Assembly (NCBI GenBank): GCA_020632235.1
Contig: JACKFY010000003.1
Coordinates: 94,139-158,138 of the forward strand
DNA length: 64,000 nt
Direction: 5' to 3'
DNA from: Pseudomonadales bacterium
Lineage (GTDB): Bacteria > Patescibacteriota > Microgenomatia > UBA1400 > PJMF01
The notes beneath the pieces were generated by a model, which was given only the letters and a program-made list of their open reading frames with translations, did no database searches and was not told the origin of the DNA. The translations under genes were made by a program, and so were the position numbers. Below, one piece after another: positions 5,718-21,285 of the stretch (the stretch's first letter is position 1; each line of letters starts with the position of its first letter).

Positions 5718-5827
5718 AGTATTATCATATGCTGATCCTCGCTTATCTCAGTAGGTATTATTTCTTTTGTAATTGAGTAGATTTTTGATATAGTAACATC
5801 CAGTTTTTATGTATTATATATGCTATC

Positions 5828-6655: not shown

Positions 6656-7344
6656 AATACGATGGTAGATTAACCAATAACCTGATTTTAATTGGCGGCG
6701 GAATAATGCTAAGGGGAGAAACGGAGAGAATTGATCGCTGGATGCTGAGAAGAGTTCAAAATAATAATAAAAAAAGCAAACCTAAAGTACTTTTTATACC
6801 CTCAGCAAGTGGCGATTTAGATGAATATATCAAAAATTTTACCAATAGGTATCAAGAATATGGAGCAATAGTGAGCAGCCTTTCTTTAACAAGTAAGGCT
6901 CCCTCAAAAACGAAGATAAAAGAACAGTTTTTCGATGCTGAATTGATATACTTTGGTGGAGGAAGTGCTGGGTTACTTCTTGAGGCATTCAAAAAATTTG
7001 AGCTAGAAAGGCTGTGTTTTGAGGCTAATAAGCTTGGAATTTTAATAACAGGACTTAGTGCAGGAGCAATTATTTGGGGAGAAAAGTTTCTAACCTTTGA
7101 TCGAAAAGGAGATGATTTTATTAATTTTCGTATTAAGCGTGGACTTGGATGGACTAACAGTTTAATTATTCCACACTTTGACCCTTCAATGTTAAAAAAT
7201 AAAAATGTGCTTAAACTACTGAAACAAAATTTAAATTTAAAATCTCTAGCTATTGGCAACGGGACTGCTGTGTATTGGGAAGGTAGTTCTATTCCTCTTT
7301 TAAGAAACAAGAAGAATCATGCAAGGGATTGTTTTTATCTATAA
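6652..7344 (+). CDS. Peptidase family S51 (dipeptidase E / cyanophycinase-like) serine peptidase
   Basis: 'KVLFIPSASGD', 'IYFGGGSAGLLL', nucleophile motif 'TGLSAGAIIWG' and 'IPHFDP' (His). All are consistent with the S51 fold and Ser-His-Glu triad. Confidence 0.7.
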   Translation: MKYDGRLTNNLILIGGGIMLRGETERIDRWMLRRVQNNNKKSKPKVLFIPSASGDLDEYIKNFTNRYQEYGAIVSSLSLTSKAPSKTKIKEQFFDAELIYFGGGSAGLLLEAFKKFELERLCFEANKLGILITGLSAGAIIWGEKFLTFDRKGDDFINFRIKRGLGWTNSLIIPHFDPSMLKNKNVLKLLKQNLNLKSLAIGNGTAVYWEGSSIPLLRNKKNHARDCFYL

Positions 7345-7362
7345 AAGATTTAATTCAAGCTT

Positions 7363-8490
7363 ATGCGTGAAAATACTTCTCTTTACAAACCACACGCCCT
7401 TCAAAAGGGAGATGAGATTGGGCTAGTAAGTCCTGTAGGTGAAATGAACAAACAATACGAACGCAGTGCTTTGACTAAGACACTATTGTATCTTAAAAGT
7501 AGGGGATATCGTATTGGTGATGCTGAAATAAATAAAACAACCCTGATAGAAGGTGTTCAAGACCCACAGATTCTTCTTGACTACTATGACCCATATGTAT
7601 TTGATGGGAGAGAAGTATGCTTGAATCCTTTTCGAATGATGCGAAGAAGTTTTCTAGGAAAAAATAACTCTTCATCTGAAGAGAGAGTAGACCTTTTTAA
7701 TCAAGCTGTTGCTCAGTGTCGAGCAGTACTACCTCTTGTCGGCAACAGGTTTGGATTGGATATTGTTGATCAAGTCGATTATGTTGCTTTCCAAAGAAAC
7801 AAACCGATCTTTGTCACGTTCAGTGCTGCTTCAGCTTTTCTTCTACACCTGCACCTCAACACCAATGTAGAGGTTTTTTATGGCCCTCATGTTCATTTTC
7901 TTGCAGGAAGATATGAGAATAACTATACTGAGTCCTCTTTCTGGGAGATGTTAACGAAAAAAAAAACACCTTTTCTTTTAGAAAACATTTACTCTTCAGA
8001 AAATAATATAATAGGGAAAGAAATTCCTTTTATAGGCCATCACAACCAATCTTCATCTAGTGTTACGGGGACACTACTCCCCATTTTTCTCTTTAGTCTA
8101 GAGAAAGTTATAAAACAAGAAAGTATTGATTTTGACCCTAGGGGAAAGATTTTAATCTTAGAAGCAGACGAAAGAAGTTATGAAGAATGCTTAGAGGCTC
8201 TACAATTAATTCATGAGCGTGTGAATCTTTCTAATTTATCTGCCTTAGTTCTCGCTTCATTTATTGCTTTTAAACAAGAAAGCATAGAATTGAGAAACAG
8301 CTTGCTTGACCGCAACAAGATTGCCGAGTTTGTTTCTAATGTGAGAGCACTTCTCGATGACAATATACCTGTGATTTACGGATTTCCTATGGGACATTCG
8401 AAACATAAACTAACAATCCCAATGGGAATTAAAGCTGAGTTAGATATCGAAACAGGAGATATAACTATAATCGAAAGCCTTTTTTCTTAA
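7363..8490 (+). CDS. Peptidase family S66 (LD-carboxypeptidase LdcA / microcin-C immunity MccF-like) serine peptidase
   Basis: N-terminal 'LQKGDEIGLVSPVG'. Nucleophile region 'FVTFSAASAFLLHLHL'. Acidic 'ILILEADERSYEE'. C-terminal 'YGFPMGHSKHKLTIPMG'. Contains an A10 homopolymer (7967-7976). Confidence 0.7.
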   Translation: MRENTSLYKPHALQKGDEIGLVSPVGEMNKQYERSALTKTLLYLKSRGYRIGDAEINKTTLIEGVQDPQILLDYYDPYVFDGREVCLNPFRMMRRSFLGKNNSSSEERVDLFNQAVAQCRAVLPLVGNRFGLDIVDQVDYVAFQRNKPIFVTFSAASAFLLHLHLNTNVEVFYGPHVHFLAGRYENNYTESSFWEMLTKKKTPFLLENIYSSENNIIGKEIPFIGHHNQSSSSVTGTLLPIFLFSLEKVIKQESIDFDPRGKILILEADERSYEECLEALQLIHERVNLSNLSALVLASFIAFKQESIELRNSLLDRNKIAEFVSNVRALLDDNIPVIYGFPMGHSKHKLTIPMGIKAELDIETGDITIIESLFS

Positions 8491-8492
8491 AG

Positions 8493-9263
8493 ATGAACGG
8501 GACTAATAACATGTCGACTAAAGAATGGTATAAACCAACAAGTGAAAACATTAGTCCTTTTGACCGTATATACCTCGAGGAATGCAGGCTCCCCAAAGAA
8601 AGGACATCGCAAGAAGCAAGCTCTTTAGGAGCCATTATTTCTGCTATGCAAATAAAACCTCGTGTTTTAGATATAGCTGGTGGATTCGGACGGATTGGTT
8701 CGGAGTTAATTAGTCAAAATCTAGCATACTCCTTAGTTAATCTAGATCTAAATAGAGAATTTCTTGATTTAGCAAGAAAGAATGGAGTGTCAGAGGTTGT
8801 GCAAGCAGATATGCGAGATTTAGCTTTTAAAAAAGGAAGTTTTGATTTGGCACTCATAATGTTTACAGCCTTTGGCTATTTTAATGATGAAGATAACTTC
8901 AGAGTTTTGCAAGAAGTATATAGAGTACTAGATGATGACGGAGTTTTAGTATTAGACTTGCCAAACTACAATAGAATTTGTAATAATTTTTCTACCCATC
9001 GAGAAATGTTATTAGGAAATGGAGATATCATAAGATACGAAAAAAAAATTGAAGGAAACTATTTAATTGAGCAAAGATTTAGAGTAGTACAAAATCAAAG
9101 TCAAAAAAAACTGTTACCTATAAAACTAAGAATATATTCTGTTTCAGAAATAGTACTATTGTGTCAGGCAGCTGGTTTTAATGAGTTACTGGTAGTTGAC
9201 CAAGAACTAAGGGGTTTTTCTTTAACTACATCAAAGCGTCTTTGGATTATTGGTACTAAATAA
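8493..9263 (+). CDS. Class I SAM-dependent methyltransferase
   Basis: Motif I 'VLDIAGGFGRIG', acidic motif II 'LVNLDLN' and post-I/II layout typical of the Methyltransf_11/12 families. Confidence 0.75.
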   Translation: MNGTNNMSTKEWYKPTSENISPFDRIYLEECRLPKERTSQEASSLGAIISAMQIKPRVLDIAGGFGRIGSELISQNLAYSLVNLDLNREFLDLARKNGVSEVVQADMRDLAFKKGSFDLALIMFTAFGYFNDEDNFRVLQEVYRVLDDDGVLVLDLPNYNRICNNFSTHREMLLGNGDIIRYEKKIEGNYLIEQRFRVVQNQSQKKLLPIKLRIYSVSEIVLLCQAAGFNELLVVDQELRGFSLTTSKRLWIIGTK

Positions 9264-9320
9264 ATGCAAGGAAGTAGTAATTATAGCAAATCCTCCTTTT
9301 TTCTACTATAATAAGAACCT

Positions 9321-10730
9321 ATGCAACGCACCCTCACCCTCCAAACCACCCAACATATCGGTGAAGTAGTCAAGCTGCAAGGCTGGGTCGACACCAAGCG
9401 CGACCACGGCAAGCTAACGTTTATTGATTTGCGTGACCGCACGGGCACTGTTCAGTGTGTGGGCTACCAAAAAATGGGTGAGCTAACTCCCGAGTCTGTG
9501 ATTGAGGTTGTCGGCCAGGTCAAAGAGCGCCCAGAAAACATGATCAATGCAGAAAGTGCCACTGGTGCGGTTGAAATTGACGTACGCGAGTACACAGTGC
9601 TGGGCAAAGCTGGCAGCCTGCCTATTCCTATCGATACGGATGGCAGTGAGATTGCCGAAGAGATGCGCCTTAAGTACCGCTATCTTGACCTGAGGCGCGA
9701 GAGGATGCAAAAAAATGTGCGAGTACGATCAGAGTTGACTCGCGCTCTGTCTGAAGCACTCTACGAGCGTGAGTTTGTCAACATCGAAACCCCCATGCTT
9801 ACCAAGTCAACCAAAGAGGGTGCGCGTGACTTTGTGGTTCCTGCCCGCCTGCAGCCAGGTTTGTTTTACGCCCTGCCCCAGAGTCCCCAGCAGTACAAGC
9901 AGCTCCTCATGACCGCAGGGTTTGAGCGCTACTTTCAGGTAGCACGCTGCATCCGTGATGAAGACCTGCGAAGTGACAGAGGTTTTGAGTTTACCCAGCT
10001 AGACCTTGAGATGAGCTTTCCCGAGTCGCGAGAGAGCGTGATGGAGTTGGTCGAGACTGTAGTCAAACAAGCGGTCACAAGTGTGGGTGGTAAGATGCAA
10101 CAAGACCCCTTTCCTGTTGTTTCGTACCCAGAGGCACTAGAAAAGTACGGCGCTGATAAGTTTGATCTTCGTACAGAGCAGGAAAAAAAGAATGGAGTAC
10201 TTGCCTTTGCCTGGGTGGTTGATTTCCCTTTTTTCAAGAAGGTTGATGCCAAAGATGTTGCCGAGGTACGTGATGGCAAGAGCGGCTGGACGTTCACCCA
10301 CAACCCCTTTAGCTCGCCTATACCAGAGCACATAGAGTGGCTCAAAAACAAAGAGCACATTGGCGAGATTATCACCGCCCAGTATGACCTAGTCTGCAAC
10401 GGCTACGAGGTGGGTGGCGGCAGCATTCGCGCCCACTCACCAGAGCTTTTGACCGCGGTGTTCGAGATCATGGGTTACTCAAGTGAAGAGATTACCGAAG
10501 GTGTAGGGCACATGCTCGAAGCCTTTGGTGTAGGCACACCACCTCACGGCGGTATTGCTTTGGGTCTTGATAGACTAGCGATGCTTCTGACCGGCGAGAC
10601 ATCACTCAAAGAATCTATTGCCTTTCCTATGACGGGGAGTGGCAAAACAGCAGTCATGCAGGCGCCAGCGCCTATTAGCGATGAGCAGTTGCGCGAGCTA
10701 CATCTAGCTACTCAGCTGCCAAAGAAGTGA
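9321..10730 (+). CDS. aspS: Aspartate--tRNA ligase (short form lacking GAD insertion)
   Basis: Class II aaRS with an OB-fold N-terminus. 'QSPQQYKQLLMTAGFERYFQVARCIRDEDLRSDRGFEFTQLDLEMSF' closely parallels AspRS motif 2 region. 'GLDRLAMLLTG' is motif 3. Confidence 0.85.
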   Translation: MQRTLTLQTTQHIGEVVKLQGWVDTKRDHGKLTFIDLRDRTGTVQCVGYQKMGELTPESVIEVVGQVKERPENMINAESATGAVEIDVREYTVLGKAGSLPIPIDTDGSEIAEEMRLKYRYLDLRRERMQKNVRVRSELTRALSEALYEREFVNIETPMLTKSTKEGARDFVVPARLQPGLFYALPQSPQQYKQLLMTAGFERYFQVARCIRDEDLRSDRGFEFTQLDLEMSFPESRESVMELVETVVKQAVTSVGGKMQQDPFPVVSYPEALEKYGADKFDLRTEQEKKNGVLAFAWVVDFPFFKKVDAKDVAEVRDGKSGWTFTHNPFSSPIPEHIEWLKNKEHIGEIITAQYDLVCNGYEVGGGSIRAHSPELLTAVFEIMGYSSEEITEGVGHMLEAFGVGTPPHGGIALGLDRLAMLLTGETSLKESIAFPMTGSGKTAVMQAPAPISDEQLRELHLATQLPKK

Positions 10731-10818
10731 GTCAGTCTCTTCTAGTTTCTTTGTAAAAGTGGGAGTAGGCATGGTAGGAATTGGTTTCGTACGCAGTATT
10801 TGTTATACTGACAGCACC

Positions 10819-11136
10819 ATGAGCAACACTACGCATAGCAATGGGTTATTACAGGCAAAAGAGGCAGTGCTCCCTGTTTTACTTAACTACTTTAACCCCC
10901 ACACAACAACGATCTTTGTCTTTGGTTCTCAAGCGTTGGGAGTACAACACGACCGATCAGACATCGATGTAGGCTACACAACTTCTACCCCCCCCAGTGC
11001 TCTTCAAACAACAGAGATGAGAGAAAAACTTGATACGCTACCCTTTCTTATCGATCTTGTTGACTTTTCGACTGTTTCGGATGACTTTAAAAAAGTAGCT
11101 AAGGAAAGTCGCATTGTATGGCACCAAGCAAAATAA
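10819..11136 (+). CDS. Minimal nucleotidyltransferase (MNT, Pol-beta superfamily) antitoxin-type protein
   Basis: 'VFGSQALGVQHDRSDIDVGY' is the GSx9-13 SDxD signature. The ORF track starts at 10759, but M21 (10819) is the likely start. 19-nt overlap with the downstream HEPN gene. Confidence 0.7.
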   Translation: MSNTTHSNGLLQAKEAVLPVLLNYFNPHTTTIFVFGSQALGVQHDRSDIDVGYTTSTPPSALQTTEMREKLDTLPFLIDLVDFSTVSDDFKKVAKESRIVWHQAK

Positions 11137-11501
11137 CTATTTTGAGAGAAAGTTTGACCTGTGCAGTAGCGCAACTTGACGAACTTGCCACAGTAGCTAA
11201 TCCGAGTGATGTTGAGCGAGACGCCCTTATCCAGCGGTTTGAGTATACGTTTGAACTTGGTTGGAAGTACTTAAAAGCACTCCTTGCAGATCAGGGTGTG
11301 CTTGAACACTCTCCCGCAAAAGTAATAAAAGAATCATATAGGGTAGAACTTATTGATGATCTCGAGCTATGGCTCACCCTGCTTGAAAAGCGAAACTTGA
11401 CTGTTCATATGTATAGTCAAGAGATTGCAGAGTCAGTACTGCCGTTTTCTCCACCGCTTGTAACAGCAACTAGACAGCTATTACGATCAACTAATGAGTG
11501 A
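11118..11501 (+). CDS. HEPN-domain protein (nucleotidyltransferase substrate-binding, HI0074-like) toxin-type
   Basis: 127 aa, helical, with the Rx4H motif 'RNLTVH' near the C-terminus. Paired with the MNT gene. Confidence 0.7.
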   Translation: MAPSKITILRESLTCAVAQLDELATVANPSDVERDALIQRFEYTFELGWKYLKALLADQGVLEHSPAKVIKESYRVELIDDLELWLTLLEKRNLTVHMYSQEIAESVLPFSPPLVTATRQLLRSTNE

Positions 11502-11597: not shown

Positions 11598-12017
11598 TTA
11601 GTAGGCATTTTTACCTAAGAAGCTGAGATCAGCGCCCTGTTGCTTCAGAAAATCTCTTAACAAAATGTACTGATTTCTTTGCGCATCTGTAGGATCGTAG
11701 CTTCTAATGATATCTACAGTCCATGTTGGGTTGTTGCGTAATGAGGAGCTCTTGGGCTGAAAAGATGTATCTATGTAAACCAACATTTCCAGAATGTCTA
11801 GCAACTTACTTTTTGGGTTTTCACTAGAAGCGACTTTGAGCAACCAAATGAGTGATGTTTGGTCAAATTTTATAAAAAAGGGGCCAGAGTTATGATCAAC
11901 CCTTGCCCACATTTGCCCACTGTTCTTTATAAGAAAGTCATACTCCGTGGGAGTAGCAACTAACCCACGATTGCGTGCCTGTTTGAATCCTGCGTAATGC
12001 TTATTATATCTTTGCAC
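11598..12017 (-). CDS. Hypothetical protein
   Basis: 139-aa ORF with no recognisable motifs. Sits between the TA pair and murC. Confidence 0.35.
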   Translation of the reverse strand: MQRYNKHYAGFKQARNRGLVATPTEYDFLIKNSGQMWARVDHNSGPFFIKFDQTSLIWLLKVASSENPKSKLLDILEMLVYIDTSFQPKSSSLRNNPTWTVDIIRSYDPTDAQRNQYILLRDFLKQQGADLSFLGKNAY

Positions 12018-12111
12018 TATTGGATCAATATAATCACTGTTCTCATGAATTTTTTGGGCAACATTCTTACCCCCCCCCAGAACGAAACCGATTGAAAAAT
12101 TCTCTCATGTC

Positions 12112-13542
12112 TTATAGTATATCATACACCTTATACACATCGCCCGCTCCCATAGTCAAACAAGCATCACCAGGTCGTAGGGTAGAGTTGAGTGTCTTTG
12201 CCAGCTCGTCAAGTGTTGTGACAACAGCAATATCTGCAGCTGGATTTTTTTGCTTGACAGCCTCTGCAAGTAGTTGACTAGATACAGAGTCATCACGTTC
12301 TTCTCTAGCAGAGGCAAAAACTTCCAGTAAGATGAGGCGCTCGATTTTTGCCAGAGCATCGACGAAGTCGTCAAACAGCTCTTTGGTGCGTGAGTAGGTA
12401 TGAGGCTGAAAGACAACTATTTTTTTTTGGTCTGGATACCACTGGCCTAAAGCGGTGAGTGTGGCGGTGATTTCGTCTGGATGGTGAGCATAGTCATCAT
12501 AGTAGGTGACACCATCTCTTTCTCTAATGTATTCAAAGCGACGCTTGGTAGAGCGAAACGCGGTGAGTGCCTGCATGGCCTCTGGCAGAGCAATGCCGAG
12601 GTGTGTGGTTGCAGCCAGCGCGCTGGCTGCATTGGCCACATTGTGAAGACCTGGTAGAGCAAGGGTGCTGGTGTGGGTTGCTCCTTGGTGCGTGATGGCG
12701 TAGGCGGTTGTACCAGCGCGCGTGCTATCGGGATCAAGCGCATAGATAACATCTGCCCCACTCTTTTTTGTGCCGAATGAAATGCCCTTGGCGGGAAGTG
12801 TCTCTGGAAGATGGGGGCGATCATCTGCGTTATACACCAATATGCCGCCCGGCTTGATGTGCGAGAAAAACTGAGCGAACACCTCTTTGGTGTGATTAAA
12901 GTCTTGGTAGACATCAGGATGGTCAAACGCGAGGTTGGTGCAGACAGTCAGGTATGGCTTGAGGTAGGAAAATCTTGGGGTGACCTGCTCTCCCTTCGTG
13001 ACTGCGGCTGGGTCGGTTACGTACTCGTCTGCCTCTGCCACAAAGTACTCTGATGCTTGATTCCAAGCTCCTGTTCTTGATAAGCCTGGAATGCTCCCCA
13101 CACCTACGGCGTAGGACGGGTGGCGAGCAGTATGTTCCAAAATCCAGGCGATCATAGCGCTGACGGTGGACTTCCCCCCTACGCCGCACACCGCAATGCC
13201 TTTTTTTTGGTTAAACAGCAGCCCGAGCGCTTCTGCATGAGAGAGGGTGGGAGTATTTTTTGCTTGGGCTTCGCGTACTAACGGATTATCAGGGCCGTTG
13301 TGGGCGGCCGTGTAGATAACGCACTGGGTGTTTTCTGGTAGTGGTGTGTTTAGAGAAGTAGCGGTAATACCAAGTTCTTCCAGCTGGTCTTTGGTGATAA
13401 AGTCTTCTGCTGTGTCACCTCCCCGCACTGTTTTCCCCATGTCAATCAGGCAGGCAGCCAGCGCAGTCATGGCAACACCTTTCACCCCAACCAAAAAAAA
13501 TCTATCCCACTCTAAAACATTTTGGATGGACACTGTGTTCAT
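12112..13542 (-). CDS. murC: Mur ligase, UDP-N-acetylmuramate--L-alanine ligase-like
   Basis: N-terminal Rossmann 'FFLVGVKGVAMTALAACLIDMGKTVRGGD' (MurC-like 'GIGGiGMS...GSD'). P-loop 'AVCGVGGKSTVSAMIA'. 476 aa. MurC versus MurD/Mpl cannot be fully resolved by eye. Confidence 0.6.
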   Translation of the reverse strand: MNTVSIQNVLEWDRFFLVGVKGVAMTALAACLIDMGKTVRGGDTAEDFITKDQLEELGITATSLNTPLPENTQCVIYTAAHNGPDNPLVREAQAKNTPTLSHAEALGLLFNQKKGIAVCGVGGKSTVSAMIAWILEHTARHPSYAVGVGSIPGLSRTGAWNQASEYFVAEADEYVTDPAAVTKGEQVTPRFSYLKPYLTVCTNLAFDHPDVYQDFNHTKEVFAQFFSHIKPGGILVYNADDRPHLPETLPAKGISFGTKKSGADVIYALDPDSTRAGTTAYAITHQGATHTSTLALPGLHNVANAASALAATTHLGIALPEAMQALTAFRSTKRRFEYIRERDGVTYYDDYAHHPDEITATLTALGQWYPDQKKIVVFQPHTYSRTKELFDDFVDALAKIERLILLEVFASAREERDDSVSSQLLAEAVKQKNPAADIAVVTTLDELAKTLNSTLRPGDACLTMGAGDVYKVYDIL

Positions 13543-13551
13543 GCTATTCTT

Positions 13552-14550
13552 TCAAAGTTTTTCTAAAATATTTTCCAAGACGTGTTGTAGTTTCGCACTG
13601 TCATGACGAATCAGCGAGCGATGAGCGGTGTCATGTTCTGATTTTTCAACTACAGTAGTGCTAGCCAGAGGTTTTTTGAGCATGTGTGTATTATGTACGT
13701 CTGTATCGTCAAGCACGGGGTATTCTTTTTCTGCTGCGTAGCGCGCTAGAATTTCTGAAGAAAAGACATCGGTATTGACCAGCATCCAGTCTACTGGCTG
13801 GCCAATAGCTGCTTCTATCCCTTTTTGGTGGACAGTGGCAGACATGCCGTGCGTTTGGGTTTTGCGGGTCATCAGGTTGAGCACGTACAGCACCTTGGCT
13901 GATGAGGTCTTGAATGCTGTTTGCACACCATCTACCATTAGTGTAGCCATGATACTGGCGTAGTAGTCACCCGGGCCAATGATGATGAGATCGGCTGACT
14001 CAATGGCTTGTTGTGCTTGAGAACTCAAAGAGCAGTTTGGCACGAGCGTTACTTTTTTTATTGTTTTAGGATGCTTTGGGTTTTCGTCCAAGATGTGCTC
14101 ACCCACCTCACTGGTGCCATCGGTGTAGTGAATCTTGAGGTTCACATTTTCGTCGGTGACGGGCAGCACGGTTCCACTCAGGCGAAAGATGCGACTGGCT
14201 ATGCCGAGTGACTCGGTTGTTGAGCTAGTCATGTCTTGGAGCGCTGTCAAGATGAGATTGCCCAGATTGTGACCCTTGAGCCCGCTTCCTTTATTAAATC
14301 GGTAGAGCAGAATGTTTTGAATCCAGTTTTCGTGTTCAGACTCGGCAAGCGCTGCAAGTGATTGTCTTAAATCACCTACAGGCTGAAAGCCAAACTCATC
14401 ACGTATGCGCCCTGTAGAGCCACCCGAGTCGGAAACAGCAATAAGGGTGGTGATGGTGACGGGCAGCTCTTTGAGTGCCGTGATCACCCCAAACGTGCCC
14501 GTGCCCCCGCCCATCACTACAACGTTATAAGGCTTCTTTTTTTTACTCAT
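13552..14550 (-). CDS. yvcK: YvcK/CofD-like (UPF0052, gluconeogenesis factor) family protein
   Basis: 'YNVVVMGGGTGTFGVITALKELPVTITTLIAVSDSGGSTGRIRDEFGFQPVGDLRQSLAALA' is the family signature. Start refined to M47 'MSKKKKPYNVVV' (ATG 14550). 8-nt overlap with the murE stop. Confidence 0.75.
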   Translation of the reverse strand: MSKKKKPYNVVVMGGGTGTFGVITALKELPVTITTLIAVSDSGGSTGRIRDEFGFQPVGDLRQSLAALAESEHENWIQNILLYRFNKGSGLKGHNLGNLILTALQDMTSSTTESLGIASRIFRLSGTVLPVTDENVNLKIHYTDGTSEVGEHILDENPKHPKTIKKVTLVPNCSLSSQAQQAIESADLIIIGPGDYYASIMATLMVDGVQTAFKTSSAKVLYVLNLMTRKTQTHGMSATVHQKGIEAAIGQPVDWMLVNTDVFSSEILARYAAEKEYPVLDDTDVHNTHMLKKPLASTTVVEKSEHDTAHRSLIRHDSAKLQHVLENILEKL

Positions 14551-15796
14551 TTCTTTTTTCAGGATTACTGTATACCAAGGTGCCAGAGGCGATAGAGCGA
14601 ATGGCGTCCGCATCGTTCCAAGGATACTCTGCCCTACCATAGCACATGCTTTGCTCGTGGCCTTTGCCACACACCACGATGGTATCACCCTTTTGGGCCA
14701 AGGTGTTCATGGCAAAGGCAATAGCCTCTCCTCTGTCAGCGATCGAGATCACATTTCGGTAGTTCTTGCCCAGGTTTTCCTTCATCTGCCTGATGATGCT
14801 CCAGACGTCTTCTTCTCGGGGGTCTTCGGCAGTAAAGATAGCGATGTCAGCACCACTTGCGGCTATCTGTCCCATGATCGGGCGCTTGCTAGTGTCTCTT
14901 TTACTAGCGCAGCCCACAATACAGATCAGCTTGCCTTTTGTTATACTCGGTTGGCGCAGATGGGAGAGAATGTGCTTTAGCCCGTTGGGGGTATGAGCGA
15001 AATCAACATATACCTGATACGGCTTCTTAACCGATATCTTTTCAACTCTACCAGGAATGCCAGTAAACTGAGTTATACCTTTGATGTACTGCTCATCATG
15101 CACCCCTACTTCGCGAGCCATACTATAGACTAGTCGTGCGTTCAGCTGGTTGAACGGCTCGGGAAAACGTGTAGCAATGGCTGTTTTTATAGACAAAGGG
15201 AGTTCTGTGTCCATGGAGTAGGTTTGCACTCTCTTGCTACGCACGTATTTTTTTACCAGTTTGTACTGTTCATCATCAGCATTGAGCACTGCTGTTTGTG
15301 CGCTAGAGAGAATGAGGCTTTTTGCCTTGGCATACTCATCCAACTTGAGATGATAGTCAAGGTGCTCGTGTGTGAGATTGGTGATGCCTGCCACGCGGGG
15401 CGTAATGCCCCAAGTACGATATTGATACAAACCGTGCGATGTAACCTCAAGCACGAGTGTGTCGTACCCCTCTTGCTCCATACGTTTTATGAAGGTGAGG
15501 AGATCTCTAGGTTGGGGTGAGGTAACATGAAACCCAGTGTCAATAGCCTCATCACCGATGTAGGCGGCAACGGTAGTCAGGAGCGCCACCTTTTTACCCG
15601 CTGCTTTCAGCACTTCGTAGAGCATGGTAGCTGAAGTAGTTTTACCATCAGTGCCGGTAACAGCCAGTACGATGATGTTTTTTTCTGGAAACCCAAGTTG
15701 CATCTGCGCTCGCCAGCCGTTGAGCACGCCTGTTTTCATAAAATGATAGGGGCGTTTTGCCTTGTAGAGAGCCATCTTGATCATGTCGCAGCCCAT
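14543..15796 (-). CDS. murE: Mur ligase, MurE-like (UDP-MurNAc-L-Ala-D-Glu:diamino acid ligase) with reduced N-terminal domain
   Basis: P-loop 'VTGTDGKTTSATM', 'VLNADDEQ', and C-terminal 'FTAEDPREED' resembling the MurE DNPRxE motif. Only about 45 aa precede the P-loop. Confidence 0.6.
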   Translation of the reverse strand: MGCDMIKMALYKAKRPYHFMKTGVLNGWRAQMQLGFPEKNIIVLAVTGTDGKTTSATMLYEVLKAAGKKVALLTTVAAYIGDEAIDTGFHVTSPQPRDLLTFIKRMEQEGYDTLVLEVTSHGLYQYRTWGITPRVAGITNLTHEHLDYHLKLDEYAKAKSLILSSAQTAVLNADDEQYKLVKKYVRSKRVQTYSMDTELPLSIKTAIATRFPEPFNQLNARLVYSMAREVGVHDEQYIKGITQFTGIPGRVEKISVKKPYQVYVDFAHTPNGLKHILSHLRQPSITKGKLICIVGCASKRDTSKRPIMGQIAASGADIAIFTAEDPREEDVWSIIRQMKENLGKNYRNVISIADRGEAIAFAMNTLAQKGDTIVVCGKGHEQSMCYGRAEYPWNDADAIRSIASGTLVYSNPEKRNE

Positions 15797-15816
15797 TATA
15801 TACCACTTTTTTACTC

Positions 15817-17649
15817 TTAATCCCCCACGCTGGCTGAGTCTGATGCTGGTAGGGTGAAATCAAAGACAGTGTTCTGGTCAAGATCGGGTGGAATATTGAG
15901 AAGAAGGAAAAGTTGGTCGGCGATGTCATACCAGAGTGGTGTGGCGGTTTCAGATGCCCAAGTAGAGGTAGTTGGTTCTGAGAGCTTGACGAGCATCACA
16001 AACTCTGGATTGTAGGCAGGGGCAAACCCAACAAAACTGGCAATAGTTTTATCTTCATCATAGCCGCCCTGTACTGCAATTTGTGAGGTGCCTGTCTTCC
16101 CCGCTACCGTGTGCGTGCGCGAGCGTGTCCACTGCGCCTCACCGTGCCCGGCAGCATTGACCATCATTTCAGTAACGGTTGTAGCAGTTTGGGCAGAAAT
16201 GGGCGTACTGAGTGTTGTTGTGCGGGCGGGAATACGCTCACCAGTGGTAGTATCGATCACACCTTCAATAATTCTCGGCTGTACCATCTGGCCGGTGTTG
16301 GCAATAGCGCTTACTGCCCGCACTAACTGCATGCTTGTAGTACCGATACCCTGACCAAATGAAGTAGTTGCTAGCTCTACAACACCTAGTTTTTCAGGGA
16401 ACGGCGTACTAGTGTCTTCCTGCATATCAATGCCGATGGGCTGTCCGATGCCAAATGATGTGAGGTATGAGAGTAAGCGCTCGGATCCAAGCAACTCAGC
16501 AATGTAGATCATGGCGGTATTGTCAGACTTTGCCAAACCTTGATTCATAGTAATGCCTGGTGTATAGACCTCATTCCATGTTTTTAGCTCATACCCACCC
16601 AGGTTTCTTGGGCCGCTGCAGCGCGGACAGCTTGTTTCAGGCGTGATCACTCCCGCATCAATACCAGCGGCAACCGTTAAAACTTTAAATGTTGAGCCTG
16701 GTTCATACATGTCTGCGAGCGAAGGGTTTTTATAGTATTCGCTCGGGTAGGCATAAAAGTACTGGGGGTTGTAGTTAGGATAGGTAGCCCAACCCAAGAT
16801 TGCTCCCGTGTGGGGGTTCATGATCAACACCTCCCCCTCTTTTGCTCCGTACCGCCGCATGCCTTGTTTGAGCTGTGTTTCAGCCATGTACTGTATGTCT
16901 CGACGAATGGTGAGTACAATATCTCGACCACGTAGCTTTTCTTCATTGAGAAACCCAACACTACCTATTTTTTTCCCCAGGGCATCAGTAGCAACCGTCT
17001 CTGTTTCAGATTTCCCCTGCAGCTCTTTTTCTAGCGCCCCCTCCACGCCAAAATAACCAGCGTCATCACCTTCTTTATTTTTACCCACAAACCCCACCAC
17101 TTGTGCGGCCATCGAGGCCTCTTTGTATGAACGCTGGATGTACTGATCAAAGCCCACACCAGTTAGTGACTCACTCGCAATGGTGTCTTTTATCTCTTGG
17201 GGGACGCGGTCAATAATAGCTACCCAATTACTTTGTGTTGCACTTATTTTTTCTAGAGCGTTGGTTTGAAATGCAGTGGTGAGCTCTTCTGGCGTCTCCC
17301 CACCAGTGTTCTGGGCTATTAACAGTGGTGTGAGATAAGGTGTAATGGTCTGTAACACCTCTGCGGGTGGTAGGGTGAGCTCTTGAGGACGAATAAACAG
17401 GCGGTAGCTCGGCTCGTTGCCAACCAATACGTGGTTGTCTGACGTGAAGATACTTCCCCGCTCACCACTGGTGGTGACCTCCCGTTGGTATTGATTTTGA
17501 GCAACTGCCTTGAGCGAGTCGCTTTGTATAATCTGCCAATAGTACAGGCGGGCTGTAATACCCAGACATACGAGACAAAAAAGAGCTATCATGCTGTGTG
17601 CTCGCCAACGCCTCATGTGTGCTTGCTTATTTTTTTCACTTCGTGTCAT
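15817..17649 (-). CDS. ftsI: Peptidoglycan D,D-transpeptidase (class B PBP, FtsI/PBP2-like)
   Basis: N-terminal TM followed by the transpeptidase motifs SxxK 'STFK', SxN 'SDN' and KTG 'KTGT'. Confidence 0.85.
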   Translation of the reverse strand: MTRSEKNKQAHMRRWRAHSMIALFCLVCLGITARLYYWQIIQSDSLKAVAQNQYQREVTTSGERGSIFTSDNHVLVGNEPSYRLFIRPQELTLPPAEVLQTITPYLTPLLIAQNTGGETPEELTTAFQTNALEKISATQSNWVAIIDRVPQEIKDTIASESLTGVGFDQYIQRSYKEASMAAQVVGFVGKNKEGDDAGYFGVEGALEKELQGKSETETVATDALGKKIGSVGFLNEEKLRGRDIVLTIRRDIQYMAETQLKQGMRRYGAKEGEVLIMNPHTGAILGWATYPNYNPQYFYAYPSEYYKNPSLADMYEPGSTFKVLTVAAGIDAGVITPETSCPRCSGPRNLGGYELKTWNEVYTPGITMNQGLAKSDNTAMIYIAELLGSERLLSYLTSFGIGQPIGIDMQEDTSTPFPEKLGVVELATTSFGQGIGTTSMQLVRAVSAIANTGQMVQPRIIEGVIDTTTGERIPARTTTLSTPISAQTATTVTEMMVNAAGHGEAQWTRSRTHTVAGKTGTSQIAVQGGYDEDKTIASFVGFAPAYNPEFVMLVKLSEPTTSTWASETATPLWYDIADQLFLLLNIPPDLDQNTVFDFTLPASDSASVGD

Positions 17650-17703
17650 AGAGAGACTATACTACCCTGCTTTGCGACGATCTGCCAGACCGCTCGCCTT
17701 ATT

Positions 17704-17994
17704 TTACGGCAGTGCAGCAACAGTTGTTTGCGCTGTTCGTATTGTTGCTGGTTTGCTGATGGGTTGAAACCCCGCTGCGCGCGCAGCGTCTTCTAGTTCT
17801 ACAAGCGAGAGGTGTGTCGTGCCAAACTGCTGCGACCTGAGTTCTTCTCTGAGTGCTGTTTGTTGATCGGTCAGCTGAGTCAGTTGGTAGCTCTGATGCA
17901 CAAATAAACTCCCCTGAAATAGGGTGGTCAGCAGCTGGGTGGCAACAAGCAGACCTAGTGCGCCATAATAGAGTGGTAGTGTTGTGTGTTTCAT
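17704..17994 (-). CDS. ftsL: Cell division protein FtsL-like (small bitopic coiled-coil protein)
   Basis: 96 aa with an N-terminal TM helix followed by a coiled-coil-like 'LTDQQTALREELRSQQ'. Positioned between rsmH and ftsI with 4-nt overlaps. Confidence 0.5.
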   Translation of the reverse strand: MKHTTLPLYYGALGLLVATQLLTTLFQGSLFVHQSYQLTQLTDQQTALREELRSQQFGTTHLSLVELEDAARAAGFQPISKPATIRTAQTTVAALP

Positions 17995-18896
17995 AGAGCG
18001 TTCCTTTCTTTGTCTTGGTTTGTATGTACTTTTTGTATTGTTCGTAAGATGGCACTGCGTGAGCGAGGATTTTTTGCCAGCTCACGTTCTGATGGCTTTA
18101 TTTTTGTTAAAACACTTCCTGCCCCAGATTCAGCAAGCATCTTCAAATACTGCTTGGCAATGCGATCTTCTCCCTCATGAAAGGCAATGGTGACAAGTGT
18201 GCCACCTGGCTCGAGTACTCCCCATGCCTGTGGGAGTGCTGCAGAGATGTGCTCGAGCTCGGAGTTCACTGCGATGCGAAGTGCTTGAAACACCTTGGTA
18301 GCAGGATGAAGTTTCCCTTTTTTTGGTTTAACCCGAGCAACGAGCCCAGACAACTGCGCGGTTGTGGTTATGGGGTCTTCATTTTTTTTGATTGCTCTAG
18401 CAATTTTTTTGGCGTACTGCTCGCCACCGAGTGTGGCAAACAGCTCGGCTAGCTGCTTTTCGGGAACAACAGCCAAGATATCTTTGGCTTGCACTCCCAG
18501 TTTGGTATCCATGCGCATATCAAGCGGACCATCACCCTCAAAGCTGAAGCCTCTCTCACTTGACATGAGTTGCTCCGTGCTCGTACCAAAGTCAAAGAGA
18601 ACTCCTCTGATAGTTCCGATATCGCTTGTTTTTTGTAGACTTCCAACAGTGTTTTCAATCTTTGAAAAATTTTCATGTTGAAGTACGAGGCTTCTTGCTT
18701 GTACTTGTGTGGCAAATCTGGTTTGAGCATGCTCTATAGCTTCGCTGTCTTGGTCAAACGCTAGTACTCGCGCACCTTTTTCTAGTAGTGCAGCGGTGTG
18801 TCCGCCTGCCCCAAGGGTTGCATCCAGATACCACTCACCTTCTTTCGGGTTTAAAACTTCAAGTACTTCAGTTGTCATAACTGAGACGTGTTTCAT
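17991..18896 (-). CDS. rsmH: 16S rRNA (cytosine1402-N4)-methyltransferase
   Basis: 'VLNPKEGEWYLDATLGAGGHTAALLEKGARVLAFDQD' is the MraW/RsmH signature. 301 aa. Confidence 0.9.
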   Translation of the reverse strand: MKHVSVMTTEVLEVLNPKEGEWYLDATLGAGGHTAALLEKGARVLAFDQDSEAIEHAQTRFATQVQARSLVLQHENFSKIENTVGSLQKTSDIGTIRGVLFDFGTSTEQLMSSERGFSFEGDGPLDMRMDTKLGVQAKDILAVVPEKQLAELFATLGGEQYAKKIARAIKKNEDPITTTAQLSGLVARVKPKKGKLHPATKVFQALRIAVNSELEHISAALPQAWGVLEPGGTLVTIAFHEGEDRIAKQYLKMLAESGAGSVLTKIKPSERELAKNPRSRSAILRTIQKVHTNQDKERNAL

Positions 18897-19312
18897 GGAA
18901 ATGCCTTTTCTGCAATTTCTTCTGCCTGCGCGTCAAGCTCGTCTCGGTACTGGTGATACCTGTCTCTATCCCAGATTTCTACTCTGCTGTGCGCGCCTAC
19001 TACTACCAGCTCTTTTTTAAGGCCGGCAAGGGTAGACAAGTACTCGGGCAGTTGTACTCGTCCATAGCTGTCAGGGGTTATTACTTGCGCGTCACCTGCC
19101 AAGAGCCTGGTGATGTCGCGTGTGCCTTTCTTTGTGAACGAGCTTTCTTCGAGTTTCTGCATCTCTTTGGTGTAGATTTCACTAGGAAAGATGAAGAGAC
19201 ATCCATCAAACCCGCGTGTGACCACCCATTCTTTTGCTGCAACTCGCAGTTGTTTTGGCAACATCACTCGTCGTTTTGCCTCGAGTGAGTGGTAGTATGT
19301 TCCTAGTAACAT
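18893..19312 (-). CDS. mraZ: Transcriptional regulator MraZ
   Basis: 139 aa with duplicated MraZ/SpoVT-AbrB-like halves ('RRVMLPKQLR', 'DGCLFIFPSEIY'). First gene of the dcw cluster. Confidence 0.85.
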   Translation of the reverse strand: MLLGTYYHSLEAKRRVMLPKQLRVAAKEWVVTRGFDGCLFIFPSEIYTKEMQKLEESSFTKKGTRDITRLLAGDAQVITPDSYGRVQLPEYLSTLAGLKKELVVVGAHSRVEIWDRDRYHQYRDELDAQAEEIAEKAFP

Positions 19313-19427
19313 TGTTATTAAGATAATTTACCACTTTTTACCATTTTAGAAAGTATGACAAAGGTTCTCCCTGGTGTAAAGAGGGAAAACCATTGACTGT
19401 CACCCAAAAAAACTACTTTTCTTATTT
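19313..19427 (-). promoter_or_regulatory. Upstream region of mraZ; presumed dcw-cluster promoter
   Basis: Intergenic segment directly upstream of mraZ on the minus strand. No convincing MraZ box repeats were resolved by eye. Confidence 0.25.
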
Positions 19428-19949: not shown

Positions 19950-19960
19950 GGTATTTTTGC

Positions 19961-21268: not shown

Positions 21269-21285
21269 AGTATAGAGAGTTCTAC

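What the first reader, a model, noticed from the sequence alone, without database searches (positions are those of the whole stretch)
12112..19312. Reduced and rearranged dcw cluster: mraZ-rsmH-ftsL-ftsI-murE-yvcK-murC
The canonical order continues from murE through murF, mraY, murD, ftsW and murG to murC. Here murE is followed directly by a YvcK/CofD-like gene with an 8-nt overlap and then a MurC-like ligase. No murF, mraY, murD, ftsW or murG lies between them. murA and murB lie about 10 kb away on the same strand, beyond aspS and the TA pair. Embedding a YvcK-family protein (implicated in cell-shape and cell-wall carbon-flux control) inside the mur operon is unusual.
Basis: partly seen in the sequence, partly recalled or inferred. 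Interest (0 to 1): 0.5.

Follow-up and report, generated by a model that had tools for sequence, protein, structure and literature searches.

The report
Lineage-wide cell-wall operon carrying yvcK
Only a 9.7 kb block that splits the operon is special to this genome.

Summary
Observation confirmed. On the minus strand lie mraZ, rsmH, an ftsL-like ORF, ftsI, murE, yvcK and murC. murE and yvcK overlap by 8 nt (ATGAGTAA). murB and murA lie 9.7 kb further on.

Interpretation partly supported. The organism is a Patescibacteria (CPR) bacterium of the Microgenomates group. Of 80 species-level genomes found with YvcK, 65 have yvcK between murE and murC, and 74 have it beside at least one of them. The lineage order is mraZ-rsmH-ftsL-ftsI-murE-yvcK-murC-murB-murA-mraY-(murD)-ftsW-murG-ftsQ-ftsA-ftsZ.

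In this genome mraY, ftsW, murG and ftsQAZ follow murA just beyond the window edge, so the cluster is hardly reduced. Only murF and murD are absent from it.

The genome-specific feature is a 9.7 kb block inserted between murC and murB. These two genes are adjacent in 62 of 62 relatives.

In deeper relatives yvcK sits with glmS, a GlmU uridyltransferase-half gene and pgeF. Related MurE proteins are fused to that uridyltransferase domain. YvcK therefore most likely controls or supplies UDP-GlcNAc for the pathway (inferred).

Also found: MurE lacks its N-terminal UDP-binding domain across the lineage; the mraZ promoter and MraZ-box repeats are conserved; a variable poly-G tract follows murC.

The parts
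19352..19380 (-). Promoter-like site upstream of mraZ (P_mra): TTTACA, 17 nt, (TG)CATACT.
   Evidence: Found by the consensus scan. The same TTTACA-17-CATACT layout is seen at the same distance from mraZ in most of about 55 relatives. Function is inferred from this conservation.
19327..19345 (-). Two direct repeats A[A/G]TGGTAAA with a 10-nt period, about 15 nt before the mraZ ATG. Probable MraZ operator.
   Evidence: Sequence read. The repeat pair ([A/G]TGG[T/G]A.. twice, 10 nt apart) is conserved in nearly all relatives. Assignment as an MraZ box is by analogy with known MraZ operators (own knowledge) and was not tested.
18893..19312 (-). mraZ (139 aa).
   Evidence: PF02381; TIGR00242 110 bits against a cutoff of 98.
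17991..18896 (-). rsmH/mraW (301 aa). Overlaps mraZ by 4 nt.
   Evidence: TIGR00006 263 bits against a cutoff of 154.
17704..17994 (-). ftsL-like small bitopic protein (96 aa). Overlaps rsmH by 4 nt.
   Evidence: No family hit. It has a hydrophobic N-terminal segment followed by a Q/L-rich stretch. A 95-106 aa ORF occupies the same slot in relatives. The assignment rests on position and topology only.
15817..17649 (-). ftsI, class B penicillin-binding protein (610 aa).
   Evidence: PBP_dimer and Transpeptidase domains.
14543..15796 (-). murE, short form (417 aa) lacking the N-terminal UDP-binding domain 1. Carries EDPR where DAP-type MurE enzymes have DNPR.
   Evidence: TIGR01085 306 bits against a cutoff of 257; only Mur_ligase_M and Mur_ligase_C are detected. 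PDB alignments start at residue 98 of 4bub and residue 124 of 2wtz. The alignment with E. coli MurE shows that about 85 N-terminal residues have no counterpart. There is no room for a longer ORF, because the ftsI stop lies 20 nt upstream.
13552..14550 (-). yvcK/glmR family gene (332 aa). Its ATG overlaps the murE stop (ATGAGTAA, 8-nt overlap).
   Evidence: TIGR01826 265 bits against a cutoff of 196; CofD proper scores 27 against 257. Best PDB hits are the YvcK structures 2hzb and 2o2z, E about 1e-54. Sequence read.
12112..13542 (-). murC (476 aa, all three Mur ligase domains). Starts 9 nt after the yvcK stop.
   Evidence: TIGR01082 337.9 bits against a cutoff of 335.1; mpl scores 170 against 389.
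12070..12078 (-). Homopolymeric G9 tract (C9 on the plus strand) just downstream of murC. Its length varies between assemblies.
   Evidence: G9 in the window and L001, G8 in L002/L088, and at least G10 at the end of NCBI contig JAGQLT010000051.1. With G8, the downstream ORF starts at the ATG at 12108 and encodes 169 aa.
11598..12017 (-). Orphan ORF (139 aa as it stands in the window; 169 aa in the G8 variant). First gene of the inserted block.
   Evidence: No Pfam hit. Found only in assemblies of this same population.
2447..11501 (.). Remainder of the genome-specific block between murC and murB. It contains an NTase/HEPN-like TA pair (10759-11501, +), aspS (9321-10730, +), a UbiE-type methyltransferase (8493-9263, +), an S66 LD-carboxypeptidase (7363-8490, +), an S51 peptidase (6652-7344, +), a 271-aa ORF (5828-6655, +), recJ (4071-5717, +) and the CCA-adding enzyme gene (2447-4006, -), which overlaps murB by 4 nt.
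   Evidence: Pfam labels of the called genes on L001 and L006. murC is directly followed by murB or murA in 62 of 62 relatives. None of the block genes lies near the cluster in relatives, except aspS in L040 and L053.
1374..2450 (-). murB (358 aa).
   Evidence: FAD_binding_4 plus MurB_C domains.
55..1377 (-). murA (440 aa). Beyond the window edge it is followed by mraY-ftsW-murG-ftsQ-ftsA-ftsZ.
   Evidence: EPSP_synthase family. The continuation is seen on the 30.7 kb Logan contig L006, which is 99.96% identical to the window.

Best explanation
[quoted passage not shown] Compared with the canonical order, murC-murB-murA have moved in behind murE, murF has left, and a YvcK/GlmR-family gene has become a fixed member between murE and murC. 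All of this is shown.

**How it most likely works (inferred).** YvcK is the remaining piece of a UDP-GlcNAc supply module that this lineage recruited into the operon. The other members of that module were glmS, the uridyltransferase half of glmU, and the MurC proof-reading factor pgeF. YvcK is co-transcribed from P_mra and translationally coupled to murE. It would match the supply of UDP-GlcNAc (the substrate of MurA and MurG) to the amount of Mur enzymes in one of two ways:
- by sensing UDP-GlcNAc and activating GlmS, as B. subtilis GlmR does; or
- by acting itself as a GlcNAc-1-P uridyltransferase, as L. monocytogenes GlmR does. This second route is attractive in this subclade, which has lost the glmU-N gene from the cluster.

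**What is specific to this genome (shown).** A 9.7 kb block of unrelated genes has been inserted between murC and murB. It splits the operon into two units: mraZ to murC, and cca-murB-murA-mraY through ftsZ.
For: **Family assignments.**

**Synteny.**
- Three relatives looked up by exact protein show the full order.
- Of 80 species-level genomes retrieved with a YvcK alignment, 50 have murE-yvcK-murC directly adjacent. Thirteen more have extra genes inserted. Two more are masked by N runs but are flanked by both genes. Only 6 lack any dcw neighbour.
- YvcK identity in these genomes goes down to 47%, so the order has persisted through deep divergence.

**Same genome.** mraY-ftsW-murG-ftsQ-ftsA-ftsZ follow murA.

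**Functional link to UDP-GlcNAc.**
- In deeper relatives yvcK is followed by a 250-aa protein that matches only the uridyltransferase half of GlmU (TIGR01173 positions 2-231 of 452, E=1e-57). A PgeF-family protein and then murC come next.
- In Collierbacteria a bona fide glmS (TIGR01135 641 bits, cutoff 418) lies between murE and yvcK.
- One genome has an archaeal-type GlmU-like gene in that position (215 bits, below the TIGR03992 cutoff of 292).
- MurE relatives exist as fusions with that same nucleotidyltransferase domain (P0245, P0267, P0311, P0264, P0249).
- Literature: GlmR stimulates GlmS and binds UDP-GlcNAc (PMC6171935, PMC7525490). GlmR orthologues make UDP-GlcNAc from GlcNAc-1-P and UTP (PMC10128056).
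- Two of the three residues needed for that activity are conserved here: D41 and N225, corresponding to Listeria (Lm) D40 and N198.

**Operon structure.** Gaps within the cluster run from -8 to +54 nt. The promoter and repeat architecture is conserved.

**Insertion.** murC abuts murB or murA in 62 of 62 relatives, against 9,661 nt here. The junctions are confirmed by independent assemblies.
Against: - The role of YvcK rests on gene neighbourhood, fusions of neighbouring genes and literature from Firmicutes. No expression or biochemical data exist for any CPR YvcK.
- The third residue of the proposed Listeria catalytic triad (D41) is Ser throughout this clade.
- The B. subtilis UDP-GlcNAc-binding residues (Y265, R301) were not mapped.
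- Co-transcription is inferred from spacing. The terminator and promoter scans are no better than shuffled controls for promoters (25 found against 24.8 expected).
- The location of glmS/glmM/glmU, murD and murF in this genome is unknown, so it is not shown that YvcK has a GlmS partner or a GlcNAc-1-P supply.
- Whether the fuller module (glmU-N plus pgeF) is ancestral or was added later was not resolved on a species tree.
Confidence: 0.72

Rival explanations
1. A local, genome-specific reduction and rearrangement of the dcw cluster removed murF-mraY-murD-ftsW-murG and inserted a stray yvcK.
For: Within the 64 kb window none of the five genes is present. This genome does carry one real local rearrangement, the 9.7 kb block between murC and murB.
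Against: The same murE-yvcK-murC order occurs in 65 of 80 species-level genomes with YvcK identity down to 47%. mraY, ftsW and murG follow murA in this very genome. A more distant CPR lineage already has murE directly followed by murC (L091).
Confidence: 0.03
2. YvcK is a structural partner of the truncated MurE. MurE has lost its UDP-binding domain 1, and the UDP-sugar-binding YvcK is made by coupled translation from the same mRNA. YvcK would bind MurE and supply nucleotide recognition in trans, or scaffold a Mur enzyme complex.
For: MurE lacks domain 1 in all 67 relatives examined, with ORFs of 391-463 aa. murE and yvcK overlap or nearly abut in most genomes. B. subtilis YvcK binds UDP-sugars (PMC7525490, and PMC10128056 citing earlier work).
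Against: - Domain-1-less MurE also occurs with murC directly behind it and no yvcK (L091).
- In Collierbacteria and L054, glmS or glmU-like genes separate murE from yvcK.
- A MurF-like ligase that also lacks domain 1 sits far from yvcK.
- Full-length and short MurE both occur fused to the GlmU-N domain.
- No MurE-YvcK fusion was seen among 150 MurE cluster representatives or 120 YvcK hits.
Confidence: 0.1
3. The CofD-like gene is not a GlmR-type protein but a phosphotransferase of another pathway (for example F420 or another lactyl/phospho-sugar transfer), and merely hitch-hikes in the operon.
For: The Pfam family is CofD (PF01933). One of the three proposed GlmR catalytic residues is substituted.
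Against: The genuine CofD model scores 27 bits against a cutoff of 257, while the YvcK subfamily model passes at 265 against 196. The best solved structures are YvcK proteins. No F420 genes are nearby. Its position has been conserved amid peptidoglycan and UDP-GlcNAc genes over deep divergence.
Confidence: 0.04
4. The arrangement is a mis-assembly or a chimeric bin.
For: The source is a metagenome. One public contig of this population ends exactly at the poly-G tract after murC.
Against: Contigs from independent Logan assemblies (SRR12358676, 20.4 kb; SRR12358675, 30.7 kb and 5.3 kb; SRR28385528) span murE through murB and from the TA pair through ileS, at 99.96-99.98% identity to the window.
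Confidence: 0.02

Closest known systems
Canonical dcw (division and cell wall) cluster, e.g. E. coli mraZ-rsmH-ftsL-ftsI-murE-murF-mraY-murD-ftsW-murG-murC-ddlB-ftsQ-ftsA-ftsZ, and the 17-gene form with murA and murB (PMC8871954)
   Same: - It starts with mraZ-rsmH-ftsL-ftsI-murE behind a single promoter with direct repeats.
- It ends with ftsQ-ftsA-ftsZ.
- mraY-(murD)-ftsW-murG keep their relative order.
- All genes lie on one strand and are tightly packed.
   Different: - The murC-murB-murA block sits between murE and mraY instead of after murG.
- murF and ddl are outside the cluster.
- murD is missing from the cluster in 38 of 50 relatives and in this genome.
- Extra genes have been gained: yvcK, and in deeper relatives glmS, glmU-N and pgeF. 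PMC8871954 concluded that the cluster's history shows 'likely no gene gain', but that study did not include CPR.
- In this genome the cluster is additionally split by a 9.7 kb block.
yvcJ(rapZ)-glmR(yvcK)-whiA(yvcL) operon of Firmicutes and Actinobacteria
   Same: The protein belongs to the same YvcK/GlmR subfamily (TIGR01826). The best structural relatives are B. halodurans and S. epidermidis YvcK. The functional theme is the same: supply of peptidoglycan precursors.
   Different: No yvcJ/rapZ or whiA gene is next to it, or anywhere in the 64 kb window. Here the partners are murE and murC, and in relatives glmS, glmU-N and pgeF. The residue equivalent to Listeria D41 is Ser.
Natural Mur enzyme fusions (MurE-MurF, MurC-MurB, MurC-Ddl and others; PMC10214165)
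   Same: The same logic of co-expression and possible channelling applies. In this lineage neighbouring genes of the cluster are also found fused: MurC-MurB (about 800-827 aa in L027, L030, L031, L042), MurE-MurC, MurE-MurC-MurB and MurE-MurD, and MurL-MurD.
   Different: The window's own genes are separate, not fused. The MurE-GlmU(N) fusion type seen here is not among the chimera types listed in that paper.
Mur-ligase-superfamily enzymes that naturally lack domain 1 (MurT, FolC, PgsB/CapB, the cyanophycin synthetase ligase module). This comparison rests on my own knowledge.
   Same: The short MurE has only the central ATP-binding domain and the C-terminal domain, like these enzymes.
   Different: By sequence it is clearly MurE. 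It passes TIGR01085, while the FolC, PgsB and cyanophycin synthetase models score far lower. It also sits in the murE slot of the operon.

Membership tests
dcw cluster | mraZ-rsmH(mraW)-ftsL-ftsI at the 5' end, co-directional. | tested here: met
   ftsL is assigned only by position and topology.
dcw cluster | Mur ligases, mraY, ftsW and murG contiguous, followed by ftsQ-ftsA-ftsZ. | tested here: inconclusive
   All of these except murF and murD are present in order in this genome. However, contiguity is broken by a 9.7 kb block between murC and murB. The murB-to-ftsZ part is contiguous, but only murB and murA lie inside the window; mraY to ftsZ lie just outside it.
dcw cluster | Canonical internal order murE-murF-mraY-murD-ftsW-murG-murC. 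| tested here: not met
   The order here is murE-yvcK-murC-murB-murA-mraY-ftsW-murG, compared with E. coli.
dcw cluster | Promoter upstream of mraZ with direct-repeat MraZ operator. | tested here: inconclusive
   A conserved TTTACA-17-CATACT site and two repeats at a 10-nt period are present. Binding and transcription were not tested.
YvcK/GlmR (TIGR01826, CofD-related) | Score above the curated subfamily cutoff and below the cutoff for true CofD. | tested here: met
   264.6 bits against 196 for TIGR01826; TIGR01819 scores 27 against 257.
YvcK/GlmR (TIGR01826, CofD-related) | Residues required for uridyltransferase activity in L. monocytogenes GlmR (D40, D41, N198). | tested here: inconclusive
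   The motif is SDSGGS here against ADDGGS in B. halodurans. D41 and N225 are invariant in the clade. The second Asp is Ser42 in all 35 aligned relatives.
YvcK/GlmR (TIGR01826, CofD-related) | UDP-GlcNAc-binding residues of B. subtilis GlmR (Y265, R301). | not tested
   No B. subtilis sequence was aligned. The PDB alignments end near residue 289.
YvcK/GlmR (TIGR01826, CofD-related) | Operon context yvcJ-glmR-whiA. | tested here: not met
   No RapZ/YvcJ or WhiA domain appears among the window's proteins or next to yvcK in relatives.
MurE (UDP-MurNAc-tripeptide synthetase) | Score above the TIGR01085 cutoff. | tested here: met
   306.2 bits against 257.3. The equivalog models NF001126 and NF001124 are not reached (316 against 373; 308 against 476).
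MurE (UDP-MurNAc-tripeptide synthetase) | Three-domain architecture with an N-terminal UDP-MurNAc-peptide-binding domain. | tested here: not met
   Domain 1 is absent. The same is true in 67 relatives.
MurE (UDP-MurNAc-tripeptide synthetase) | DNPR motif of meso-DAP-adding enzymes. | tested here: not met
   The sequence reads EDPR. T. maritima MurE has DDPR and M. tuberculosis MurE has DNPR. The amino-acid specificity is therefore uncertain.
MurC | Score above the TIGR01082 cutoff with all three Mur ligase domains. | tested here: met
   337.9 bits against 335.1, a marginal pass. PF01225, PF08245 and PF02875 are all present.

The most novel reading that the evidence does not exclude
Microgenomates-group bacteria may build their peptidoglycan precursor with a remodelled cytoplasmic pathway. 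MurE, and a MurF-like ligase in relatives, have both lost the UDP-binding domain 1. The murD slot of the operon is empty in this subclade, and where murD is present it can be fused to the MurL epimerase, which indicates the L-Glu route. A UDP-sugar-binding YvcK is translationally coupled to MurE. The most novel reading is that substrate recognition no longer resides in each ligase but in a multi-enzyme assembly, with YvcK as nucleotide-binding subunit or scaffold, or that these ligases act on a non-UDP (for example lipid-linked) intermediate.
Probability: 0.08. Interest if true: 0.8.

Novelty: new variant of a known kind. Interest (0 to 1): 0.42.

Why it matters
[quoted passage not shown] Here a whole CPR class has reordered it and added genes for UDP-GlcNAc supply and precursor proof-reading.
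- This is independent comparative-genomic support, from organisms far from Firmicutes, that YvcK/GlmR works at the entry to peptidoglycan synthesis.
- It points to culturable-host or heterologous experiments that could settle whether GlmR is a regulator or an enzyme.
- The lineage-wide loss of the UDP-binding domain from MurE is an unexplained biochemical oddity worth testing.
- For genome annotation, the result warns against reading this order as a local rearrangement.
- It also shows that many public MAGs carrying the order are mislabelled as Pseudomonadales.

Tried and rejected
- **Local rearrangement hypothesis:** rejected by synteny.
- **Assembly artefact:** rejected by independent contigs.
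- **RNA elements:** Rfam at gathering thresholds and ARAGORN found nothing in the whole window. There is therefore no glmS ribozyme or other known riboswitch in the cluster.
- **Terminators and promoters:** the scan gave no convincing internal terminator, and the promoter count equals that of the shuffled controls. Only the mraZ-proximal site is credible, and only because it is conserved.
- **Locating murD and murF in this genome or in near-complete relatives:** I matched the 'longest contig' values of MurD and MurF-like homologues to known contigs.
  - MurF-like proteins were placed on the same contig as the dcw cluster in L016's genome. They lie between recO and proS in L019 and L029.
  - Nothing was found for the window's own genome.
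  - No close MurD was found for four single-contig genomes of about 1 Mb that lack in-cluster murD. This is suggestive but not evidence of absence, because only the best 120 hits are listed.
- **Small proteins:** Pfam and NCBIfam gave nothing for the ftsL-like ORF, the 139-aa ORF, the 263-aa ORF upstream of mraZ, or the ftsQ-slot protein.
- **Literature:** searches for yvcK/glmR in a dcw cluster or in CPR found no description. The key dcw evolution paper (Megrian et al. 2022) is not held in the library, so prior mention there cannot be excluded.
- **** failed on a coordinate error and gave no data.

Full report
**1. What is in the sequence**

On the minus strand of the window the ORF list and the family scans give the following genes:
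- mraZ, 18893-19312
- rsmH, 17991-18896
- a 96-aa ftsL-like ORF, 17704-17994
- ftsI, 15817-17649
- murE, 14543-15796
- yvcK, 13552-14550
- murC, 12112-13542

Spacing is operon-like:
- mraZ/rsmH and rsmH/ftsL each overlap by 4 nt.
- There are 54 nt before ftsI and 20 nt before murE.
- murE and yvcK overlap by 8 nt (ATGAGTAA).
- There are 9 nt before murC.

NCBIfam places the CofD-like protein in the YvcK subfamily (265 bits, cutoff 196) and not in CofD proper (27 bits, cutoff 257). The last ligase is MurC (337.9 bits, cutoff 335.1).

No murF, mraY, murD, ftsW or murG is found between murE and murC, or anywhere else in the 64 kb. This holds for Pfam scans of essentially all ORFs and for tblastn with the E. 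coli proteins.

murB (1374-2450) and murA (55-1377) are on the same strand, 9.7 kb downstream of murC.

**2. Source and reliability**

Exact copies of the proteins occur on Logan assemblies of metagenome runs SRR12358675, SRR12358676 and SRR28385528, and on a 5.3 kb contig of NCBI MAG GCA_020429115.1. These contigs match the window at 99.96-99.98% and span every junction of interest. The layout is therefore not a mis-assembly.

The nearest named YvcK homologues come from Woesebacteria, Pacebacteria and 'Microgenomates group' MAGs. The closest non-identical one is only 67% identical. NCBI taxonomy places Collierbacteria in the Patescibacteria/Microgenomates group. The placement of Pacebacteria and Woesebacteria in the same group rests on my own knowledge.

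Many of the related MAGs are labelled 'Pseudomonadales', 'Vitreimonas' or 'Gammaproteobacteria' in their records. This is evidently wrong given their gene content.

**3. Synteny**

Three relatives looked up by exact protein carry the following order on one strand: DUF4012 - recO - proS - a 265-aa ORF - mraZ - rsmH - ftsL - ftsI - murE (403-416 aa) - yvcK - murC - murB - murA - mraY - ftsW - murG - ftsQ - ftsA - ftsZ.

A scan of one genome per GTDB species with a YvcK alignment returned 80 loci. I labelled their ORFs with the window's proteins. The counts are:
- 50 have murE-yvcK-murC directly adjacent.
- 13 have the same three genes with extra genes in between.
- 2 have yvcK masked by runs of N but flanked by murE and murC.
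- 9 are cut by a contig end, or have only one of the two neighbours.
- 6 have no dcw gene beside yvcK. These are WWE3, Saccharimonadia-like and others, where yvcK follows proS or stands among unrelated genes.

YvcK identity to the window in the syntenic set runs from 67% down to 47%.

A more distant CPR contig has mraZ-rsmH-ftsL-ftsI-murE(short)-murC with no yvcK (L091). The murE-to-murC junction is therefore older than the yvcK insertion.

**4. The 'missing' genes**

In this same genome murA is followed by mraY, ftsW, murG, a 249-aa ftsQ-slot gene, ftsA and ftsZ. These lie just beyond position 1 of the window (L006).

murD lies between mraY and ftsW in 12 of the 50 relatives where both are visible, and is absent from that slot in 38. 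It also follows mraY at the cut ends of three further deep-branching loci. The canonical mraY-murD-ftsW order is therefore probably ancestral here and was lost in the window's subclade.

The in-cluster murD passes TIGR01087. In one genome it is fused to a MurL-type epimerase (899 aa).

murF is never in the cluster. A divergent MurF-like ligase occurs elsewhere:
- It is 444 aa and scores 161 bits on TIGR01143, below the cutoff of 288.
- It also lacks domain 1.
- It lies between recO and proS in two relatives.
- Its homologues are widespread in the lineage, one of them on the same contig as the dcw cluster of another relative.

I could not locate murD or murF for the window's own genome. The tools do not give access to the rest of the bin.

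**5. What is specific to this genome**

murC is followed within 470 nt by murB, or is fused to it, in 62 of 62 relatives. Here the gap is 9,661 nt. The intervening block contains:
- an orphan 139-aa ORF
- an NTase/HEPN-like toxin-antitoxin (TA) pair
- aspS
- a UbiE-type methyltransferase
- an S66 LD-carboxypeptidase
- an S51 peptidase
- a 271-aa ORF
- recJ
- the CCA-adding enzyme gene, which overlaps murB by 4 nt and now heads the distal unit

None of these genes is near the cluster in relatives, except aspS in two genomes. In those two genomes the cluster is broken at a different place, upstream of murE.

The most rearrangement-resistant unit across all genomes is murE-yvcK-murC-murB-murA-mraY. 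This window is the only case among the 62 where it is broken.

**6. Why yvcK is there**

In deeper-branching relatives (YvcK identity 47-53%) two genes follow yvcK before murC:
- a 250-aa protein that matches only the N-terminal uridyltransferase half of GlmU (E=1e-57, positions 2-231 of 452)
- a 240-aa PgeF/YfiH-family protein (Pfam Cu-oxidase_4, E=6e-46; 115 bits on TIGR00726, below its cutoff of 141)

In Collierbacteria a genuine glmS (641 bits, cutoff 418) lies between murE and yvcK. In one genome an archaeal-type GlmU-like gene (215 bits, below the TIGR03992 cutoff of 292) does.

An exhaustive search with the window's MurE found cluster representatives in which MurE, short or full-length, is fused to that same nucleotidyltransferase domain. 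It also found MurE-MurC, MurE-MurC-MurB and MurE-MurD fusions.

The recurrent partners of yvcK in this lineage are thus the enzymes that make UDP-GlcNAc, together with the factor that corrects MurC errors.

This fits the experimental literature:
- B. subtilis GlmR stimulates GlmS and is controlled by UDP-GlcNAc binding (PMC6171935, PMC7525490).

In the window's protein the equivalents of D40 and N198 are conserved (D41 and N225, invariant in 35 relatives). D41 is replaced by Ser in the whole clade.

My best reading is that YvcK is the retained core of a UDP-GlcNAc supply or control module wired into the operon. Whether it acts as a regulator or as an enzyme is open.

**7. Regulation**

A promoter-like site, TTTACA-17-(TG)CATACT, lies at 19380-19352. 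It is followed by two A[A/G]TGGTAAA repeats 10 nt apart, ending about 15 nt before the mraZ start.

The same arrangement is visible upstream of mraZ in nearly all relatives. This is what makes it credible, because the promoter scan by itself performs no better than shuffled sequence. By analogy with known MraZ operators (own knowledge) the repeats are the likely MraZ binding site.

**8. The short MurE**

- The protein is 417 aa. Pfam finds only the middle and C-terminal Mur ligase domains.
- Alignments to solved MurE structures begin at residue 98 (4bub) or 124 (2wtz).
- An alignment with E. coli MurE shows that about 85 N-terminal residues (domain 1, which binds the UDP-MurNAc-peptide; PMC10214165) have no counterpart.
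- A conserved stub of about 35 aa precedes the P-loop.
- ftsI ends 20 nt upstream, so no longer ORF is possible.
- All 67 relatives with a full murE have ORFs of 391-463 aa.
- Dozens of 50%-identity clusters of short MurE exist.
- The DAP-specificity motif DNPR reads EDPR.

I considered whether YvcK replaces the lost domain in trans. Four observations argue against a strict coupling:
- The short MurE of L091 has no yvcK neighbour.
- Other genes lie between murE and yvcK in Collierbacteria and in L054.
- The domain-1-less MurF-like ligase sits far from yvcK.
- No MurE-YvcK fusions were found.

None of these excludes an interaction.

**9. Comparison with what is known, and novelty**

This is a dcw cluster, a known kind, in a lineage-specific variant:
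- The mur genes are reordered.
- murF has been lost from the cluster, and often murD as well.
- Genes have been gained: yvcK, plus or minus glmS, glmU-N and pgeF.

A 903-genome synteny study that excluded CPR concluded the cluster shows 'likely no gene gain' (PMC8871954).

I found no paper describing yvcK/glmR in a dcw cluster or in CPR. The main dcw evolution paper that did include CPR is not in the library, so prior mention cannot be ruled out.

**10. Verdict**

- The interpretation as a local, reduced cluster is largely wrong. It is a conserved lineage trait plus one local insertion.
- The embedding of yvcK is real, conserved and functionally sensible.
- Interest is moderate. It comes mainly from the support for GlmR's role and from the unexplained domain loss in MurE.

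Noticed in passing
window 12070-12078 (minus-strand G9), with ORF 11598-12017/12108: A homopolymeric G tract lies directly after murC. It is G9 in the window and one Logan assembly, G8 in another, and at least G10 at the end of an NCBI contig. With G8, an ORF of 169 aa starts 3 nt after the murC stop. With G9, only a 139-aa ORF remains. This could be phase variation or homopolymer sequencing error.
   Followed up: partly
window 14543-15796; relatives L008-L087; L029:1171-2505: MurE lacks the N-terminal UDP-binding domain across the lineage and has EDPR instead of DNPR. A divergent MurF-like ligase in relatives also starts about 30 residues before its P-loop, so it too lacks domain 1.
   Followed up: partly
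L027:15842-18541; MurD hits: One relative has an 899-aa MurL-epimerase/MurD fusion. JGI names several of these MurDs 'L-glutamate ligase'. This suggests the lineage uses the MurD2/MurL route (add L-Glu, then epimerise) rather than glutamate racemase.
   Followed up: no
L027, L030, L031, L042 (MurC ORFs of 799-827 aa): MurC-MurB fusion proteins occur in four relatives. MurE-MurC, MurE-MurC-MurB, MurE-MurD and MurE-GlmU(N) fusions occur among MurE cluster representatives (P0243, P0247, P0246, P0245 and others).
   Followed up: partly
window 19327-19380 and upstream of mraZ in about 55 loci: The -35/-10 promoter and a pair of A[A/G]TGGTAAA repeats at a 10-nt period are strongly conserved before mraZ across the lineage. 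The repeats are a likely MraZ operator.
   Followed up: partly
window 19428-27378 and relatives: The block upstream of mraZ (DUF4012 protein - recO - proS - 263-aa ORF) is also conserved in order across most relatives. The conserved neighbourhood is therefore about 25 kb long. The window additionally has a DUF805 gene and two 170-aa ORFs there.
   Followed up: no
window 6652-8490: An S66 LD-carboxypeptidase (weak match to muramoyltetrapeptide carboxypeptidase LdcA) and an S51 peptidase sit inside the block that splits the cell-wall operon. They are possibly linked to peptidoglycan peptide recycling.
   Followed up: no
window 10759-11501: A nucleotidyltransferase / NTase_sub_bind (MNT/HEPN-like) toxin-antitoxin pair lies at the edge of the inserted block. 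Its two genes overlap by 19 nt.
   Followed up: no
window about 46000-58000: A low-GC stretch (29-40%, against about 47% elsewhere) carries glycosyltransferases, a methyltransferase, a sulfatase, a PAPS-reductase-like gene and an ABC ATPase. It lies within a long glycosylation region (27-63 kb) and is probably a variable or horizontally acquired surface-polysaccharide island.
   Followed up: no
record titles of L012-L087, P0001, P0032: Dozens of these CPR MAGs are deposited under wrong organism names (Pseudomonadales, Gammaproteobacteria, Vitreimonas), including the record that holds the window's own YvcK.
   Followed up: no
L082:7955-8879: In one non-syntenic genome, labelled Saccharibacteria, yvcK is split over two reading frames. 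This is either a pseudogene or a sequencing error.
   Followed up: no
L064:5986-7056: In one deep-branching relative a ddl gene (195 bits to E. coli DdlB) lies upstream of yvcK. Some lineages therefore keep ddl in the cluster.
   Followed up: no
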